Shown: positions 15,685 through 26,665 of the stretch, piece by piece
Position numbering within the stretch: the first letter of the stretch is position 1
How the letters are laid out: the number at the start of each line of letters is the position of its first letter
Source of the DNA: Escherichia coli
GTDB taxonomy: Bacteria > Pseudomonadota > Gammaproteobacteria > Enterobacterales > Enterobacteriaceae
DNA length: 64,000 nt
Direction: 5' to 3' (one strand)
Assembly (NCBI RefSeq): GCF_003334335.1
Contig: NZ_QOWQ01000002.1
Translations under genes and position numbers: made by a program
Notes under the pieces: generated by a model
The model's input: the letters and a program-made list of their open reading frames with translations, nothing else
Told to the model about the DNA's origin: nothing
The model's database searches: none

Positions 15685-15841
15685 TAAAAGGTGTGTTACA
15701 GGGCAGAAATTTCCTGTCCTGTAACATTTGATGAGCGCAAAGAGAATGACCGGTTTGTGAATGTAATTTTATGAATTTAAATGGTTTTATCTTTCAGTAG
15801 AAACTTCAAACGTTCATCAAACACTCAGGTTATTTCCTCAA

Positions 15842-15870
15842 GGGCAGATTATTTTCTGCCCTTTTTTATT
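15842..15870 (+). terminator. Rho-independent terminator, probable end of fruBKA transcript
   Basis: gggcagattattttctgcccttttttatt: 7-bp GC stem plus T-run. Confidence 0.55.
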
Positions 15871-16106
15871 GTTCTGTTCTGTGCATCCCGTCACAAATTC
15901 CTCGCTTTTGTAATTCAGGCATTTAATCGCATTTTGTGAGCCTGCTCAAATCTGCCCATTTTGCCTCTCTGGCGGTAATTTACTTTACGTAAAACATGCA
16001 TACTATGAGCACATGTTTAAATATGAACACATGTTTAAACCGTCTTTGCAGTATCTATATTCTTGTGGATTGACAGGGTTGGTAATTTTTTACCAGAGGA
16101 CGTGCT

Positions 16107-17048
16107 ATGCGCGAAAAGGATTATGTCGTAATTATAGGTTCGGCGAATATTGATGTCGCCGGATATTCACATGAATCATTAAATTATGCGGATTCAAATC
16201 CAGGTAAAATAAAATTTACGCCTGGTGGAGTAGGGCGCAATATTGCACAAAACCTGGCGTTGCTGGGTAACAAAGCCTGGCTACTGAGCGCCGTAGGCAG
16301 TGATTTTTATGGTCAATCGCTGCTAACGCAAACCAATCAATCTGGCGTTTATGTCGATAAATGCCTGATTGTGCCGGGAGAAAATACGTCGAGTTATTTA
16401 TCATTACTCGATAATACCGGTGAAATGCTGGTTGCTATAAATGACATGAATATTAGCAACGCTATTACAGCTGAATATCTCGCACAGCACGGTGAATTTA
16501 TTCAGAGGGCAAAGGTCATTGTCGCGGACTGTAATATCAGTGAAGAGGCACTGGCATGGATTCTGGATAATGCCGCCAACGTACCCGTATTTGTCGATCC
16601 GGTTTCGGCATGGAAATGTGTCAAAGTGCGCGACCGTCTAAATCAGATCCACACTCTCAAGCCAAACCGCCTTGAAGCGGAAACCCTGAGTGGGATTGCG
16701 CTGTCAGGGCGTGAAGATGTGGCAAAAGTTGCTGCCTGGTTCCATCAACATGGCCTGAACCGACTGGTATTGAGCATGGGCGGCGACGGCGTTTATTACA
16801 GCGATATCAGCGGTGAAAGTGGCTGGTCTGCGCCGATCAAAACCAATGTTATTAATGTTACCGGAGCGGGCGATGCCATGATGGCGGGACTTGCTTCGTG
16901 TTGGGTAGACGGAATGCCGTTTGCCGAATCTGTTCGTTTCGCACAGGGATGTTCGTCAATGGCGCTCTCCTGTGAATACACCAATAACCCCGATTTATCG
17001 ATTGCCAACGTTATATCGTTAGTGGAGAACGCAGAATGTCTGAATTAA
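16107..17048 (+). CDS. psuK: Pseudouridine kinase PsuK (YeiC), PfkB family
   Basis: 313 aa PfkB-type kinase (GAGDAMMAG); synteny with psuG. Confidence 0.9.
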   Translation: MREKDYVVIIGSANIDVAGYSHESLNYADSNPGKIKFTPGGVGRNIAQNLALLGNKAWLLSAVGSDFYGQSLLTQTNQSGVYVDKCLIVPGENTSSYLSLLDNTGEMLVAINDMNISNAITAEYLAQHGEFIQRAKVIVADCNISEEALAWILDNAANVPVFVDPVSAWKCVKVRDRLNQIHTLKPNRLEAETLSGIALSGREDVAKVAAWFHQHGLNRLVLSMGGDGVYYSDISGESGWSAPIKTNVINVTGAGDAMMAGLASCWVDGMPFAESVRFAQGCSSMALSCEYTNNPDLSIANVISLVENAECLN

Positions 17049-17974
17049 AAATTTCCCCTGAATTATTACAAATTTCCCCGGAAGTGCAGGACGCTTTAAA
17101 AAACAAAAAACCGGTTGTGGCGCTGGAATCGACCATTATTTCTCACGGGATGCCGTTCCCACAAAATGCCCAGACCGCAATTGAAGTTGAAGAAACTATT
17201 CGTAAACAGGGCGCTGTACCTGCCACGATCGCCATTATTGGCGGCGTGATGAAAGTGGGGTTAAGCAAAGAAGAAATTGAATTACTGGGTCGTGAAGGGC
17301 ATAACGTGACCAAAGTTAGTCGTCGCGATTTACCTTTTGTTGTTGCCGCCGGAAAAAATGGCGCAACCACTGTGGCTTCAACGATGATTATTGCGGCGCT
17401 TGCCGGAATTAAAGTATTTGCCACCGGGGGAATTGGTGGTGTGCATCGCGGGGCGGAACATACCTTCGATATTTCTGCCGATTTGCAAGAACTGGCAAAT
17501 ACTAATGTCACCGTTGTTTGTGCCGGGGCGAAATCTATTCTCGATTTAGGATTAACCACTGAGTATTTAGAAACCTTCGGTGTGCCGTTAATTGGCTATC
17601 AGACTAAAGCGCTGCCTGCGTTTTTCTGCCGCACCAGCCCGTTTGACGTCAGCATTCGTCTCGACAGCGCCAGCGAAATTGCCCGTGCAATGGCGGTGAA
17701 ATGGCAAAGCGGTCTGAACGGTGGCCTCGTGGTAGCGAACCCGATCCCGGAACAGTTTGCTATGCCGGAACACACTATCAATGCGGCGATCGATCAGGCG
17801 GTAGCTGAAGCTGAAGCTCAGGGAGTCATTGGTAAAGAAAGTACGCCATTCCTGCTGGCGCGCGTTGCTGAACTGACCGGCGGTGACAGCCTGAAATCCA
17901 ACATCCAGCTGGTGTTCAACAACGCCATTCTGGCGAGCGAAATTGCCAAAGAATATCAGCGTCTCGCGGGTTAA
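17036..17974 (+). CDS. psuG: Pseudouridine-5'-phosphate glycosidase PsuG (YeiN)
   Basis: 312 aa; overlaps psuK stop; synteny. Confidence 0.9.
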   Translation: MSELKISPELLQISPEVQDALKNKKPVVALESTIISHGMPFPQNAQTAIEVEETIRKQGAVPATIAIIGGVMKVGLSKEEIELLGREGHNVTKVSRRDLPFVVAAGKNGATTVASTMIIAALAGIKVFATGGIGGVHRGAEHTFDISADLQELANTNVTVVCAGAKSILDLGLTTEYLETFGVPLIGYQTKALPAFFCRTSPFDVSIRLDSASEIARAMAVKWQSGLNGGLVVANPIPEQFAMPEHTINAAIDQAVAEAEAQGVIGKESTPFLLARVAELTGGDSLKSNIQLVFNNAILASEIAKEYQRLAG

Positions 17975-18067
17975 TTTCTGACGGGCAGAAAGCCGTCGCC
18001 CGTACTCATCAAGCATACCAAAACCTGGCGCTGACGCCGGGTTTACCGGCATGAAGGGAAAATCATT

Positions 18068-19317
18068 ATGGATATAATGAGAAGTGTTGTGGGGATGGTG
18101 GTGTTACTGGCAATAGCATTTCTGTTGTCAGTGAATAAAAAGAGCATCAGTTTGCGCACGGTTGGAGCCGCACTGCTGCTGCAAATCGCTATTGGTGGCA
18201 TCATGCTCTACTTCCCACCGGGAAAATGGGCAGTAGAACAGGCGGCATTAGGCGTTCATAAAGTGATGTCTTACAGTGATGCCGGTAGCGCCTTCATTTT
18301 TGGTTCGCTGGTTGGGCCGAAAATGGATGTCCTGTTTGACGGTGCGGGTTTTATCTTCGCCTTTCGCGTACTTCCGGCGATTATTTTCGTTACTGCGCTC
18401 ATCAGTCTGCTGTACTACATTGGCGTGATGGGGCTGCTGATTCGCATCCTTGGCAGCATTTTCCAGAAAGCCCTCAACATCAGCAAAATCGAATCTTTTG
18501 TTGCGGTTACTACTATTTTCCTCGGGCAAAATGAGATCCCGGCGATCGTTAAACCGTTTATCGATCGCATGAATCGCAACGAGTTGTTTACCGCAATTTG
18601 TAGCGGGATGGCGTCCATTGCTGGTTCGATGATGATTGGTTATGCCGGAATGGGCGTACCAATTGACTACCTGTTAGCGGCATCGCTGATGGCGATCCCT
18701 GGCGGGATTTTGTTTGCACGTATTCTTAGCCCGGCAACCGAGCCTTCGCAGGTCACATTTGAAAATCTGTCGTTCAGCGAAACGCCGCCAAAAAGCTTTA
18801 TCGAAGCGGCGGCGAGCGGTGCGATGACCGGGCTAAAAATCGCCGCGGTGTGGCGACGGTGGTAATGGCGTTTGTCGCAATTATTGCGCTGATCAACGGC
18901 ATTATCGGCGGAATTGGCGGCTGGTTTGGTTTCGCCAATGCCTCTCTGGAAAGTATTTTTGGCTATGTGCTGGCACCGCTGGCGTGGATCATGGGTGTGG
19001 ACTGGAGTGATGCCAATCTTGCGGGTAGCCTGATTGGGCAGAAACTGGCGATTAACGAATTCGTCGCTTACCTGAGTTTCTCCCCATACCTGCAAACGGG
19101 CGGCACGCTGGAAGTGAAAACCATTGCGATTATCTCCTTTGCGCTTTGTGGTTTTGCTAACTTTGGTTCTATCGGTGTTGTCGTTGGCGCATTTTCGGCT
19201 ATTTCGCCAAAACGCGCGCCGGAAATCGCCCAGCTTGGTTTACGGGCGCTGGCAGCAGCAACGCTTTCCAACCTGATGAGTGCGACTATTGCCGGGTTCT
19301 TTATTGGTCTGGCGTAA
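18068..19317 (+). pseudogene. psuT: Nucleoside transporter PsuT (YeiM, CNT family), frameshifted into 265-aa and 155-aa pieces
   Basis: Track ORFs 18068..18865 and 18850..19317 are consecutive frames of one CNT transporter; alignment with intact paralog nupX (21257..22507) shows one missing G in gccgcggtgtgg vs gccgcaggtgtgg near 18847. Confidence 0.65.
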
Positions 19318-22613: not shown

Positions 22614-23702
22614 TTACACCATTGGCACTAATGAAAGCGCGTTATCGGCAGACAGGGTAGGGTTGTTTAAGCTGCCGCTGGCGCGCGAAATTGCCGCGCA
22701 GGCTACCGCAAAACGGGCGCTGTCGCGGAAACTGTATCCTTCAAGAAAGCTATATACCAGGCCCGCCATAAAACCATCGTCAGCACCAAAACTGTCTACT
22801 GTCGTATGCGCTGGCGCGGTCAGCAAAAATTGTTCTCCATCCTTTTCGCTGCAATAAACTGACTCATCGGGCAAATAAACAAACAGTTGCTGAACACCTT
22901 GCTGATGCAATGCATTCACTGCGGTATTACGGTCAGCATCGCTGGTGATCGCCTGTCCCCATAAAATTTCCAGCTCCGGTAAAGTGGGTTTCAGGGTGTG
23001 AATATGCGCCAGCCAGTGTTTGATTTTGCCCGCTTTGAATTCTGAAACGGTATCGACAAACACCGGGATTTCATCAGCGAGGGTAAAGACCCATTCCAGC
23101 GCCTCGGCTGTCAGGTTGCAATCAGCCAGTACCACGCCCGCATGACGAAGTAAATCGCGCGACCCGTTCAGTAGTTGCGGTGTCAACTGTTCCAGCAGAT
23201 GGGTATCGTTAATCGCCAGCACGGTTTGATCGTCTCGATTGGCAATTGCCAGATACGTCGATGTGCTTTGACCATGCAAACGAACGCAGCCGGAGACATT
23301 CACGCCGGCACGGCGCGTTTCTTCCAGGAGCATTTCGCCATAAAAGTCATCGCCAATCACTGAAAGCAAATGGACGTCACGGCCTAACAGCGCCAGATTG
23401 TGGGCGATGTTGCGTCCCACGCCGCCCGCTGAGCAATGAATTGTACCGGGATGAGAAGCCGATTGCGGGTAACGGATATCCGCCATCCCGCGAATATCCA
23501 TATTGATTGTCCCCACCACTACGCAGTATTCCTGCTCGGTGAGAATGTAACCTTTGCCTTTAATCCGGCCTTTGCGCATTAAATCCATAATATGCGCCGC
23601 AACGCGCGAACGGCTGATTTGCAGCATGTCCGCAATTTCGTTCTGCTGAATCAGCGGGTTACGCCGTAAAATTGCAAGGATCTCCTTTTCCCGGTTATTC
23701 AT
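22614..23702 (-). CDS. yeiI: HTH-domain sugar/nucleoside kinase YeiI (PfkB family)
   Basis: 362 aa; N-terminal HTH plus PfkB kinase domain. Confidence 0.88.
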   Translation of the reverse strand: MNNREKEILAILRRNPLIQQNEIADMLQISRSRVAAHIMDLMRKGRIKGKGYILTEQEYCVVVGTINMDIRGMADIRYPQSASHPGTIHCSAGGVGRNIAHNLALLGRDVHLLSVIGDDFYGEMLLEETRRAGVNVSGCVRLHGQSTSTYLAIANRDDQTVLAINDTHLLEQLTPQLLNGSRDLLRHAGVVLADCNLTAEALEWVFTLADEIPVFVDTVSEFKAGKIKHWLAHIHTLKPTLPELEILWGQAITSDADRNTAVNALHQQGVQQLFVYLPDESVYCSEKDGEQFLLTAPAHTTVDSFGADDGFMAGLVYSFLEGYSFRDSARFAVACAAISRASGSLNNPTLSADNALSLVPMV

Positions 23703-25783: not shown

Positions 25784-26665
25784 ATGCACATCACCCTCCG
25801 GCAGTTGGAAGTTTTTGCAGAAGTATTGAAAAGTGGATCAACCACCCAGGCGTCGGTGATGCTGGCGTTGTCGCAATCAGCAGTGAGCGCAGCCTTGACC
25901 GACCTGGAAGGGCAGCTTGGCGTGCAACTGTTTGATCGCGTGGGGAAAAGACTGGTTGTTAATGAACACGGGCGGCTGCTCTATCCGCGTGCGTTGGCAT
26001 TGCTTGAACAGGCGGTTGAAATCGAACAACTGTTTCGCGAAGACAACGGCGCGATTCGTATCTATGCCAGTAGTACCATCGGTAACTACATTCTGCCTGC
26101 AGTTATCGCCCGTTATCGCCATGATTATCCGCAGTTGCCGATTGAACTTAGCGTTGGGAATAGCCAGGACGTGATGCAAGCGGTGCTGGATTTCCGCGTT
26201 GATATTGGCTTTATTGAAGGACCGTGCCACAGCACTGAAATCATTTCTGAACCGTGGCTGGAAGACGAGCTGGTGGTTTTCGCCGCGCCGACTTCGCCGT
26301 TGGCCCGTGGTCCGGTCACCTTAGAACAGCTGGCCGCTGCGCCGTGGATCCTGCGTGAACGCGGTTCCGGCACGCGGGAGATTGTCGATTATCTGTTGCT
26401 GTCACATTTACCGAAGTTTGAGATGGCGATGGAATTAGGTAACTCCGAGGCAATCAAACATGCGGTGCGTCATGGGTTGGGAATTAGTTGCCTGTCGCGA
26501 CGTGTGATTGAAGATCAATTGCAGGCAGGCACATTAAGTGAAGTTGCGGTCCCTCTGCCGCGCCTGATGCGTACGTTGTGGCGTATACATCATCGGCAAA
26601 AACACCTTTCCAACGCGCTACGGCGCTTTCTGGACTATTGCGATCCCGCAAATGTGCCGCGTTAA
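25784..26665 (+). CDS. yeiE: LysR-family transcriptional regulator YeiE
   Basis: 293 aa; N-terminal LysR HTH; divergent from yeiH. Confidence 0.9.

What the first reader, a model, noticed from the sequence alone, without database searches (positions are those of the whole stretch)
15990..16045. Tandem 18-bp palindrome-containing repeats in the psuK promoter region
atgagcacatgtttaaat (16005-16022) and atgaacacatgtttaaac (16023-16040) form a direct tandem repeat, each unit with an ACATGT core, preceded by another acatg (aaaacatgcatactatg). It lies ~65-100 bp upstream of the psuK start and looks like a paired operator for a dimeric regulator controlling the pseudouridine catabolic operon. The regulator is not evident from sequence; the neighbouring HTH-kinase YeiI or YeiL are speculative candidates.
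Basis: partly seen in the sequence, partly recalled or inferred. Interest (0 to 1): 0.35.

Follow-up and report, generated by a model that had tools for sequence, protein, structure and literature searches.

The report
Paired operator at the psuK promoter
The 18-bp tandem repeat upstream of the E. coli pseudouridine-kinase gene is a conserved pair of palindromic repressor-type binding sites sitting on the transcription start of the pseudouridine-catabolism operon, most likely bound by the uncharacterised HTH-kinase paralogue YeiI.

Summary
The repeat is real: 16004-16021 and 16022-16039 match at 17/18. It is the only such tandem in the 64-kb window and appeared in 0 of 5000 shuffles.

Comparison across about 15 lineages shows the functional units are two 12-bp dyads of consensus rAACA-NN-TGTTy. 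These are O1 (16008-16019) and O2 (16026-16037), 18-19 bp apart. The direct-repeat appearance is confined to the K-12-like E. coli haplotype.

The dyads begin 0-2 nt after the -10 hexamer of a conserved promoter: -35 TTTACT 15979-84, -10 TACTAT 16001-06, and a CRP-like site at about -71. A published recurrent adaptive SNP (psuK/fruA, -126) maps to 15981 and turns TTTACT into TTGACT, which independently fixes the promoter. The dyads therefore cover about -5 to +25, a repressor position.

Every locus carrying the dyads also encodes an HTH_24-PfkB protein. This is either the first gene of the psu operon or, in Enterobacteriaceae, the separate gene yeiI. yeiL is absent from most of these loci.

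The YeiI clade keeps the pseudouridine-binding residues, but its catalytic GAGD motif is GADD.

Best reading: YeiI is a pseudouridine-sensing repressor acting at O1/O2. No binding experiment exists, and I found no published regulator for psuK.

The parts
15935..15950 (+). CRP-like site TGTGA-gcctgc-TCAAA. Its centre is 15942.5, about -70.5 to -71.5 from the inferred start, which is class I geometry.
   Evidence: Read directly from the sequence. TTGTGA and TCA.A are invariant in 11 Enterobacteriaceae and present in Enterobacter. CRP binding was not tested.
15979..15984 (+). -35 hexamer TTTACT of the psuK promoter. Position 15981 is the site of the recurrent adaptive T>G change (reported as A>C on the genome strand), which gives TTGACT.
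   Evidence: TTTAC is invariant in alignment A1. The same TTTACT hexamer occurs in Yersinia, Serratia, Photorhabdus, Xenorhabdus and Affinibrenneria. The SNP is annotated 'intergenic (-126/+297)' in the PMC7858067 supplement and as 2257444 A>C in PMC7518454 and PMC9509342. 16107-126 = 15684+297 = 15981.
16001..16006 (+). -10 hexamer TACTAT, 16-nt spacer after the -35. The inferred transcription start is about 16013.
   Evidence: sequence. TAyyAT is conserved. The start site is inferred, not measured.
16008..16019 (.). Operator dyad O1, GAGCACATGTTT, at about -5 to +7.
   Evidence: Conserved as rArCA-NN-TGTTy in 13 of 15 lineages, always 0-2 nt after the -10.
16026..16037 (.). Operator dyad O2, GAACACATGTTT, at about +14 to +25. 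It is 18 bp from O1.
   Evidence: The spacing is 18 bp in Enterobacterales and Pasteurella and 19 bp in Shewanella, Aliivibrio and the Burkholderiaceae MAG.
16004..16039 (+). It contains O1 and O2 with their flanks, homogenised in the K-12-like haplotype.
   Evidence: Only about 12/18 identical in E. albertii, Citrobacter and E. coli CFT073.
16079..16096 (+). 5'-UTR hairpin UUGGUAA-UUUU-UUACCAG abutting the Shine-Dalgarno GAGGA (16096-16100).
   Evidence: A stem is present in 11 Enterobacteriaceae, with a U-A / U.G / C-G compensatory series. Its role is unknown.
16107..19317 (+). Regulated operon: psuK (16107-17048), psuG (17036-17974) and psuT (18068-19317). psuT is frameshifted in this window.
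22614..23702 (-). yeiI, encoding an HTH_24 (residues 1-48) + PfkB (58-348) protein. It is the proposed regulator that binds O1/O2.
15840..15863 (+). fruA intrinsic terminator. It bounds the psuK regulatory region on the upstream side.

Best explanation
The tandem repeat is a pair of dyad-symmetric operators, O1 (16008-16019) and O2 (16026-16037), with consensus rAACA-NN-TGTTy and 18 bp centre to centre. They overlap the transcription start and early transcribed region of a weak sigma-70 promoter for psuKGT that is probably CRP-dependent: CRP-like site near -71, -35 TTTACT, -10 TACTAT.

Inferred mechanism: dimers of YeiI occupy O1 and O2 and block initiation or promoter escape. YeiI is an N-terminal winged-helix HTH_24 domain fused to a PfkB domain paralogous to pseudouridine kinase. 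Binding of pseudouridine (or its 5'-phosphate) to the PfkB domain releases the DNA, and cAMP-CRP then sets the induced level.

In other Gammaproteobacteria, and in one Burkholderiaceae MAG, a single HTH-PfkB protein heads the operon and would be both kinase and autorepressor. In Enterobacteriaceae the gene is duplicated into PsuK (enzyme, no HTH) and YeiI (HTH, altered catalytic motif).

Shown by data: the repeat itself; its conservation; its position relative to the conserved -35/-10; the -35 identity of the published adaptive SNP; and the co-occurrence with HTH-PfkB genes.

Inferred: the transcription start, protein binding, the sign of regulation, the effector, and CRP dependence.
For: (1) Conservation. 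In 11 Enterobacteriaceae the four half-sites and the 18-bp spacing are conserved with no indels, while the inter-dyad spacer and the central 2 nt vary.

(2) Distribution. The same double dyad occurs upstream of the psu operon in Enterobacter, Affinibrenneria, Yersinia, Serratia, Photorhabdus, Pasteurella, Shewanella and Aliivibrio, and partly in a Burkholderiaceae MAG. That is 13 of 15 lineages. In 12 of them at most 27 of 2000 shuffles matched as well, and in 4 none did. In 298 kb of fetched DNA, matches with at most 1 mismatch lie almost only at this position.

(3) Position. The dyads begin 0-2 nt after the -10 hexamer in Enterobacterales. The distance to the ATG varies from 3 to 246 nt, so promoter and dyads move together as one module.

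(4) Independent promoter evidence. The recurrent adaptive SNP in mouse-gut and long-term stationary-phase evolution lies at -126 from psuK, which is window position 15981, and changes TTTACT to TTGACT. The authors report that it alters psuK expression and growth. The same allele is fixed in 5 of 4027 genomes, 4 of them laboratory strains.

(5) Regulator. Every locus examined encodes an HTH_24-PfkB protein. It is either the first gene before psuG or a yeiI-type copy next to psuKGT.

(6) YeiI sequence. YeiI has HTH_24 at E = 2e-10 plus PfkB and is 39% identical to PsuK. It keeps the residues equivalent to PsuK Ser30, Asn143 and Lys170, which PMC9061257 identifies as pseudouridine determinants.

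(7) Catalytic motif. All 42 motif-scorable YeiI-clade proteins have GADD or GADE where all 42 motif-scorable single-copy HTH-PfkB proteins, and PsuK, have the catalytic GAGD.

(8) No prior assignment. YeiI's function is stated as unknown in PMC9061257 and it is listed as a hypothetical TF in PMC6055005. NCBIfam calls it only 'sugar kinase'.
Against: There is no direct binding, footprint, TSS or expression data for YeiI or these sites. The start site is inferred from hexamers and one SNP.

If YeiI were a simple repressor, loss-of-function mutations in the 1.1-kb yeiI gene should be a frequent adaptive route, as they are for frlR, srlR, dgoR and glpR. The evolution studies instead report one specific -35 SNP, and no yeiI mutation appears in the stored parts of their supplements. 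Those files are truncated.

Xenorhabdus lacks the canonical double dyad. It has TCATGTTCAAACATGA instead.

No dyad lies upstream of yeiI, nupX or rihB in the window.

The half-site geometry, 4-2-4, is compact for an HTH dimer.

I could not scan the whole genome or consult RegulonDB or EcoCyc, so an existing annotation cannot be excluded.
Confidence: 0.6

Rival explanations
1. The dyads are operators, but for a regulator encoded elsewhere. Candidates would be a DeoR/GlpR-type nucleoside or sugar-phosphate repressor, or an uncharacterised TF. On this reading YeiI is only a second kinase.
For: Read across the junction, TGTTTAAATATGAACA matches the DeoR consensus as I remember it (TGTTAGAA.TTCTAACA) at 11/16, and resembles the GlpR half-sites as I remember them. 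No yeiI mutations were reported in the evolution experiments. There are no binding data for YeiI.
Against: The central positions of that junction palindrome are the least conserved part. The O1-O2 spacing changes from 18 to 19 bp in Shewanella and Aliivibrio, which would break a junction-centred site. The only regulator gene that co-occurs with the dyads in all lineages examined is HTH_24-PfkB.
Confidence: 0.17
2. YeiL, the neighbouring CRP/FNR-family regulator, binds the sites read as TGAAC-N4-GTTyA and activates psuKGT.
For: yeiL lies immediately downstream of psuT in E. coli. The 5-N4-5 reading has FNR-like geometry.
Against: yeiL is absent from the psu loci of Citrobacter, Buttiauxella, Enterobacter, Yersinia, Serratia, Pasteurella, Shewanella and Aliivibrio, where the dyads are conserved. 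The sites overlap the inferred start rather than lying at -41.5 or -61.5, as expected for an activator of this family.
Confidence: 0.06
3. The repeat acts in the mRNA. It would form a 5'-terminal hairpin (GUUUAAAUAUG/CAUGUUUAAAC) or encode a leader peptide (MSTCLNMNTCLNRLCSIYILVD) that controls stability or translation.
For: The K-12 leader folds with an 11-bp stem made from the repeats, z = -2.6. The 18-bp period is in frame with an ATG at 16005.
Against: The stem depends on the K-12-specific direct repeat and is lost in Citrobacter, E. albertii and B2 strains. Half-site sequence is conserved rather than pairing. The ATG is ATA in Buttiauxella and C. werkmanii, and it lies upstream of the inferred start. 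There is no Rfam match.
Confidence: 0.05
4. The repeat is a neutral slippage duplication with no function.
For: The 17/18 identity of the two units indicates a recent homogenising event in the K-12-like haplotype.
Against: Both underlying dyads predate that event and are conserved from Escherichia to Pasteurellaceae and Vibrionaceae, at a fixed position relative to the -10.
Confidence: 0.02

Closest known systems
Enzyme-derived or bifunctional 'trigger-enzyme' repressors: ROK family NagC/Mlc versus sugar kinases, BirA, NadR
   Same: An HTH is fused to a kinase-type or ligase-type fold that binds the pathway metabolite. The regulator is paralogous to, or identical with, a pathway enzyme. The operators overlap the promoter of the catabolic or biosynthetic operon.
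   Different: Here the sensor fold is PfkB (ribokinase-like) with an HTH_24 winged helix. I found no characterised regulator with that architecture. DNA binding is only inferred.
BlaI/MecI/CopY winged-helix repressors and their TACA-NN-TGTA boxes
   Same: Compact 4-2-4 inverted repeat, AACA-NN-TGTT versus TACA-NN-TGTA. Two boxes per operator region overlap the promoter. The TACANNTGTA consensus is quoted in the abstract of PMC7253601.
   Different: The HTH family is different and there is no sequence relationship. Signal input is by proteolysis or metal rather than a nucleoside. The resemblance is of geometry only.
Classical CRP-plus-specific-repressor catabolic promoters (lac, gal, deo, cdd/udp with CytR)
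   Same: A weak -35, a class I CRP-like site near -71, and specific operators at or after the start. The gene set belongs to nucleoside catabolism.
   Different: The specific operators do not match the CytR, DeoR or LacI-family consensus sequences as I remember them. CRP dependence of psuK was not found in the literature searched.
YeiL (CRP/FNR family) regulon
   Same: Neighbouring gene. The dyad can be read as 5-N4-5.
   Different: There is no co-occurrence with the dyads outside Escherichia, and the position is a repressor-type position.

Membership tests
Repressor-type operator overlapping a core promoter | Site overlaps the -10, the transcription start or the early transcribed region | tested here: met
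   O1 starts 1 nt after the -10 TACTAT. The promoter is fixed by the invariant TTTACT/-10 and by the -35 up-mutation at 15981. The start site itself is inferred.
Repressor-type operator overlapping a core promoter | Dyad symmetry with conserved half-sites and fixed spacing across species | tested here: met
   rAACA-NN-TGTTy twice, 18-19 bp apart, in 13 of 15 lineages.
Repressor-type operator overlapping a core promoter | A protein binds the site and lowers transcription | not testable with these tools
   Needs EMSA or footprinting and reporter assays.
HTH_24-PfkB (YeiI-type) regulator and its regulon | Regulator gene co-occurs with the site across genomes | tested here: met
   All 15 lineages examined carry HTH_24-PfkB in or beside the psu operon. 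There is no negative control from genomes that lack it.
HTH_24-PfkB (YeiI-type) regulator and its regulon | DNA-binding domain plus a ligand-binding domain specific for the pathway metabolite | tested here: met
   Pfam HTH_24 1-48 and PfkB 58-348. The equivalents of PsuK Ser30, Asn143 and Lys170 are invariant.
HTH_24-PfkB (YeiI-type) regulator and its regulon | Sensor copy is catalytically degenerate (pseudokinase) | tested here: inconclusive
   GAGD is replaced by GADD or GADE in all 42 motif-scorable YeiI-clade proteins, against GAGD in all 42 motif-scorable single-copy homologues. The catalytic Asp is retained and activity is untested.
Class I CRP-dependent promoter | TGTGA-N6-TCACA-like site centred near -61.5, -71.5 or -82.5 | tested here: met
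   TGTGAgcctgcTCAAA has its centre at 15942.5, which is -70.5 to -71.5. It is conserved in Enterobacteriaceae.
Class I CRP-dependent promoter | Transcription depends on cAMP-CRP | not testable with these tools
   Nothing was found in the literature search.
CRP/FNR-family (YeiL) binding site | Regulator co-occurs with the site, and the site lies at an activator position | tested here: not met
   yeiL is absent from most loci that have the dyads. The site overlaps the start.
Known cis-regulatory RNA or leader peptide | Match to a curated RNA family, or a conserved structure or ORF | tested here: not met
   There is no Rfam hit. The repeat hairpin and the ORF start are not conserved.
DeoR operator (16-bp palindrome TGTTAGAA.TTCTAACA, consensus from memory) | Conserved 16-bp palindrome with fixed internal spacing | tested here: not met
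   The K-12 match is 11/16. The central 8 positions vary between species and the spacing changes by 1 bp in Shewanella and Aliivibrio.

The most novel reading that the evidence does not exclude
YeiI is a pseudouridine-sensing transcription factor built from a pseudouridine-kinase fold. The ancestral state would be a bifunctional HTH-PsuK 'trigger enzyme', both kinase and autorepressor, heading the psu operon, as it still does in Yersinia, Serratia, Pasteurella, Shewanella and Aliivibrio. In Enterobacteriaceae this gene would have duplicated and subfunctionalised into PsuK (enzyme, HTH lost) and YeiI (HTH retained, GAGD changed to GADD, possibly a pseudokinase). This would be the first described PfkB-family transcription factor and the first dedicated sensor for a modified-RNA breakdown product. 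It would also explain mechanistically the most recurrent gut-adaptive SNP of E. coli K-12, as a -35 up-mutation of the operon it controls.
Probability: 0.45. Interest if true: 0.62.

Novelty: new member of a known kind. Interest (0 to 1): 0.45.

Why it matters
psuKGT is the only known bacterial route for recycling pseudouridine, the most abundant modified nucleoside. I found no regulator for it in the literature.

The psuK/fruA intergenic SNP is among the most parallel adaptive mutations when E. coli colonises the mouse gut or survives long-term stationary phase. It has so far been described only as 'in the promoter region'.

This analysis gives:
- a concrete promoter map (CRP site, -35, -10, two operators);
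- an explanation of the SNP as TTTACT to TTGACT;
- a testable function for the y-gene yeiI;
- an operator motif that can be used to annotate psu regulons across Gammaproteobacteria.

For pseudouridine bioproduction strains, it also identifies the native control elements to remove or exploit.

Tried and rejected
- **Scan promoter.** The consensus scan proposed TTTAAA(16034)-N16-TATATT(16056), which would put the repeats at an activator position. Rejected: it is not conserved outside Escherichia, and the adaptive SNP lies in the upstream hexamer.
- **Other motif copies in the window.** I looked upstream of yeiI/nfo, nupX, rihB and yeiL. Only chance-level matches turned up. One double-dyad-like match lies inside yeiE at 26007 and is probably chance.
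- **Leader-peptide ORF and RNA-hairpin readings.** Rejected on conservation and the Rfam result.
- **ArgR, TyrR, NsrR, PurR, CytR, DeoR and GlpR consensus comparisons (from memory).** None fits. The DeoR-like junction reading fails on spacer variability.
- **Measured TSS.** The Cappable-seq supplement is stored truncated and does not reach 2.26 Mb.
- **Literature on a psuK regulator, CRP control or YeiI function.** Nothing was found. One search was wasted on too-loose terms.
- **RNAalifold on the SD-proximal hairpin.** It failed because of a 1-nt alignment shift. Per-sequence folds were used instead.
- **About 1200 E. coli genomes apparently lacking psuK by megablast.** CFT073, the one B2 genome I examined, carries a divergent albertii-like haplotype with both dyads. 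I infer, but did not check, that this explains most of them.
- **Whole-genome motif scan.** Not possible with the tools and caps available.

Full report
**Identity of the region.** The window is the reverse strand of E. coli K-12 around 2.21-2.275 Mb. The 426-bp query spanning the 422-bp fruA-psuK intergenic region is 100% identical to MG1655. The gene order is fruBKA, psuK (ATG 16107), psuG, psuT, yeiL (minus), rihB, nupX, yeiI (minus), nfo, yeiH. The fruA terminator lies at 15840-15863, so the psuK control region is about 15870-16106.

**Observation.** In the best register, 16004-16021 TATGAGCACATGTTTAAA and 16022-16039 TATGAACACATGTTTAAA differ at one base. No comparable tandem arose in 5000 dinucleotide-preserving shuffles of the intergenic region, and it is the only tandem of period 14-24 with at most 1 mismatch in the 64-kb window.

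**Where the promoter is.**
- Several evolution studies report a highly parallel SNP, 'psuK/fruA A>C at 2257444' (NC_000913.2). It arose in the gut of most mice colonised with K-12 and in three long-term stationary-phase populations.
- The breseq annotation in the PMC7858067 supplement is 'intergenic (-126/+297)'. Both offsets give window position 15981, since 16107-126 = 15684+297.
- On the psuK sense strand the change is T>G, converting TTTACT (15979-15984) to TTGACT. This is a textbook -35 up-mutation.
- Sixteen nt downstream lies TACTAT (16001-16006).
- The authors describe the SNP as being in the psuK promoter and as changing psuK expression and growth.
- The G allele is fixed in 5 of 4027 complete genomes. 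Four of these are laboratory K-12 derivatives: ER1821R, ER2683, S17-1 and ST18.

**Phylogenetic footprint.** I aligned the psuK upstream regions of 11 Enterobacteriaceae: three further Escherichia species, E. albertii, Buttiauxella, Citrobacter and a Raoultella-labelled MAG. Five conserved blocks stand out:
- a CRP-like TGTGA-N6-TCAyA (15935-15950);
- the -35 TTTAC(T/A);
- the -10 TAyyAT;
- two blocks coinciding with the repeat;
- a hairpin abutting the Shine-Dalgarno sequence.

The promoter-like match found by the consensus scan (16034/16056) is not conserved. With a start near 16013, the CRP-like centre (15942.5) is at about -71, which is class I geometry.

**What the repeat units really are.**
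- In Citrobacter and Buttiauxella the second unit is GAACATGTGCTC, the reverse complement of K-12's first unit GAGCACATGTTC-like core. In E. albertii the units are GAACATGTGTTT and GAACATATGTTC.
- The conserved object is therefore a 12-bp dyad, rAACA-yr-TGTTy, present twice: O1 16008-16019 and O2 16026-16037. The spacing is an invariant 18 bp, with variable central dinucleotides and a variable 6-nt spacer.
- E. coli CFT073 (phylogroup B2) carries an albertii-like haplotype: O1 GAACATGTGTTT, O2 GAACACGTGCTC, -35 TTTACA.
- The near-perfect direct repeat is thus a recent homogenisation peculiar to the K-12-like haplotype. About 4200 of 5426 genomes carry that haplotype. The two sites themselves are old.

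**Wider distribution and the candidate regulator.**
- YeiI is HTH_24 (1-48) plus PfkB (58-348) and is 39% identical to PsuK over the kinase domain.
- In Citrobacter, Buttiauxella and Enterobacter the locus is psuK-psuG-psuT followed by convergent yeiI-nfo-yeiH, with no yeiL, rihB or nupX. The genes inserted upstream in C. werkmanii are a Dcu transporter, a racemase and a LysR regulator.
- In Yersinia, Serratia, Xenorhabdus, Photorhabdus, Pasteurella, Shewanella, Aliivibrio and a Burkholderiaceae MAG, a YeiI homologue (42-54% identity) is itself the first gene of an HTH-PfkB/psuG(/psuT) operon.
- Affinibrenneria has the two-gene arrangement.
- In 13 of 15 lineages the same double dyad (AACA-N3-GTT twice, start-to-start 18 or 19 bp) lies upstream of the first operon gene. 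In 12 lineages at most 27 of 2000 shuffles matched as well, and in four none did.
- In Enterobacterales the first dyad begins 0-2 nt after a -10 hexamer that is preceded by TTTACT at 16-17 nt. The distance from O2 to the start codon ranges from 3 nt (Yersinia, Pasteurella) to 246 nt (Affinibrenneria). The promoter and the dyads therefore behave as one module.
- In Yersinia and Serratia the called start codon is probably too far upstream. The dyads lie in what is annotated as the first 9 codons, just before the conserved MTSREKQIL.

**Inference on mechanism.** Dyad sites that begin at the end of the -10 and extend to about +25 are in a repressor position. The only regulator gene that accompanies them in all lineages is HTH_24-PfkB. 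PfkB kinases, including PsuK, are dimers (established knowledge; PsuK structures 7vkp and others). Two HTH domains per dimer would fit one dyad, and two dimers would fit O1 plus O2. YeiI retains the residues that PMC9061257 identifies as pseudouridine determinants in PsuK (Ser30, Asn143, Lys170). Pseudouridine or its phosphate is therefore the likely effector.

**Signature of subfunctionalisation.** All 42 motif-scorable full-length proteins of the YeiI clade (at least 57% identity to E. coli YeiI) have GADD or GADE at the PfkB catalytic/anion-hole motif. All 42 motif-scorable, more distant single-copy HTH-PfkB proteins, and PsuK, have the canonical GAGD. This is what subfunctionalisation after duplication would look like, with YeiI as sensor-regulator and PsuK as enzyme. 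Loss of activity is not shown.

**Rivals.**
- **YeiL.** It is adjacent in E. coli and the dyad can be read as a 5-N4-5 FNR-like site. But yeiL is missing from most loci that conserve the dyads, and the position is wrong for an activator.
- **A trans-encoded DeoR/GlpR-like repressor.** It cannot be excluded. The junction-centred reading that resembles those operators is undermined by the variable spacer and by the 18-to-19-bp change.
- **RNA-level readings.** The K-12 leader folds well. However, the stem and the in-frame mini-ORF are not conserved, and there is no Rfam family.
- **Pure slippage.** Excluded by the age of the sites.

**Evidence that does not fit well.** The evolution experiments repeatedly hit one -35 base rather than inactivating yeiI. 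No yeiI, yeiL, psuG or psuT mutations appear in the stored (truncated) supplements. Three explanations are possible, all untested:
- the inducer is already present in vivo, so promoter strength is limiting;
- YeiI has another needed role;
- repression is not the main limitation.

Xenorhabdus has a different arrangement near its start codon.

**What is known.** I found no paper describing a regulator, operator, TSS or CRP control for psuK. YeiI is called 'function unknown' (PMC9061257), a hypothetical TF (PMC6055005) and 'sugar kinase' (NCBIfam). No HTH-PfkB structure is in the PDB. RegulonDB, EcoCyc and RegPrecise could not be consulted.

**Verdict.** This is a real, ancient, paired operator on the start site of a CRP-type catabolic promoter. 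Its most likely ligand is the HTH-kinase paralogue YeiI. The architecture is ordinary. The predicted regulator family and the link to a famous adaptive SNP make it moderately interesting and directly testable.

Noticed in passing
window 15981: Position of the highly parallel adaptive SNP psuK/fruA (A>C at NC_000913.2 2257444, -126 from psuK), reported from mouse-gut and long-term stationary-phase evolution. On the psuK strand it changes the -35 from TTTACT to TTGACT. The window carries the ancestral T. The G allele is fixed in 5 of 4027 complete genomes: the laboratory strains ER1821R, ER2683, S17-1 and ST18, and a pigeon isolate.
   Followed up: yes
window ~18847 (psuT, 18068-19317): There is a 1-bp deletion relative to MG1655 (GCCGCTGGTG becomes GCCGCGGTG). 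It frameshifts psuT into two ORFs (18068-18865 and 18850-19317). No exact match to this stretch exists in any of 3238 E. coli genomes that hold the region, so it is private to this sequence or an error.
   Followed up: partly
window 15594 and 17694: Two further differences from NC_000913.3 occur within 13.5 kb: fruA codon 534 CTA versus CTG (synonymous), and psuG codon 220 GCG (Ala) versus GTG (Val).
   Followed up: partly
window 16079-16096: A hairpin UUGGUAA-UUUU-UUACCAG lies directly 5' of the psuK Shine-Dalgarno sequence. It is conserved in 11 Enterobacteriaceae, with a compensatory series at one pair: U-A in K-12, U.G in E. albertii, and C-G in Citrobacter, Enterobacter and E. coli CFT073. 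In Citrobacter the same bases resemble a sigma-54 -24/-12 element, but the GC is lost in K-12. Its role is unknown.
   Followed up: partly
window 15935-15950: A conserved CRP-like site TGTGAgcctgcTCAAA lies about 71 bp upstream of the inferred psuK start. I found no report of CRP control of psuK.
   Followed up: partly
window 26007-26036 (inside yeiE): GAACAGGCGGTTGAAATCGAACAACTGTTT matches the double-dyad pattern with 1 mismatch. It lies 223 nt into the yeiE coding sequence and is also present in E. albertii (L005 6903). It is probably chance plus coding conservation.
   Followed up: no
L013 5750-5769, L014 ~5740, L015 ~5709, L021 ~3720: A far-upstream palindrome AACCAAACA-NN-TGTTTGGTT has the same AAACA..TGTTT core and lies about 250-300 bp upstream of the HTH-PfkB gene in Yersinia, Serratia, Xenorhabdus and Photorhabdus. 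It sits about 70 nt downstream of a CRP-like TGTGA-N6-TCA site. It may be a second promoter-plus-operator module or a looping site. It is absent from the E. coli-type loci.
   Followed up: partly
yeiI, window 22614-23702, and E. coli genomes: yeiI is present in 5423 of 5426 complete E. coli genomes but in two allele classes, about 97-100% and about 81% nucleotide identity. In genomes with the divergent allele (strain S5, CFT073) nupX is reduced to a fragment. CFT073 also has a frameshifted psuG.
   Followed up: partly
L013 and L014 6001-6027: The called start codon of the Yersinia and Serratia HTH-PfkB genes (MFKNKQVS..) is probably 9 codons too far upstream. The extra codons coincide with the operator dyads, and the conserved N-terminus starts at MTSREKQIL.
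   Followed up: partly
window 15984-15993: A perfect 10-bp palindrome TTTACGTAAA lies in the -35/-10 spacer. It is specific to Escherichia (TTTGTCAAAA in Citrobacter), so it is probably incidental.
   Followed up: no
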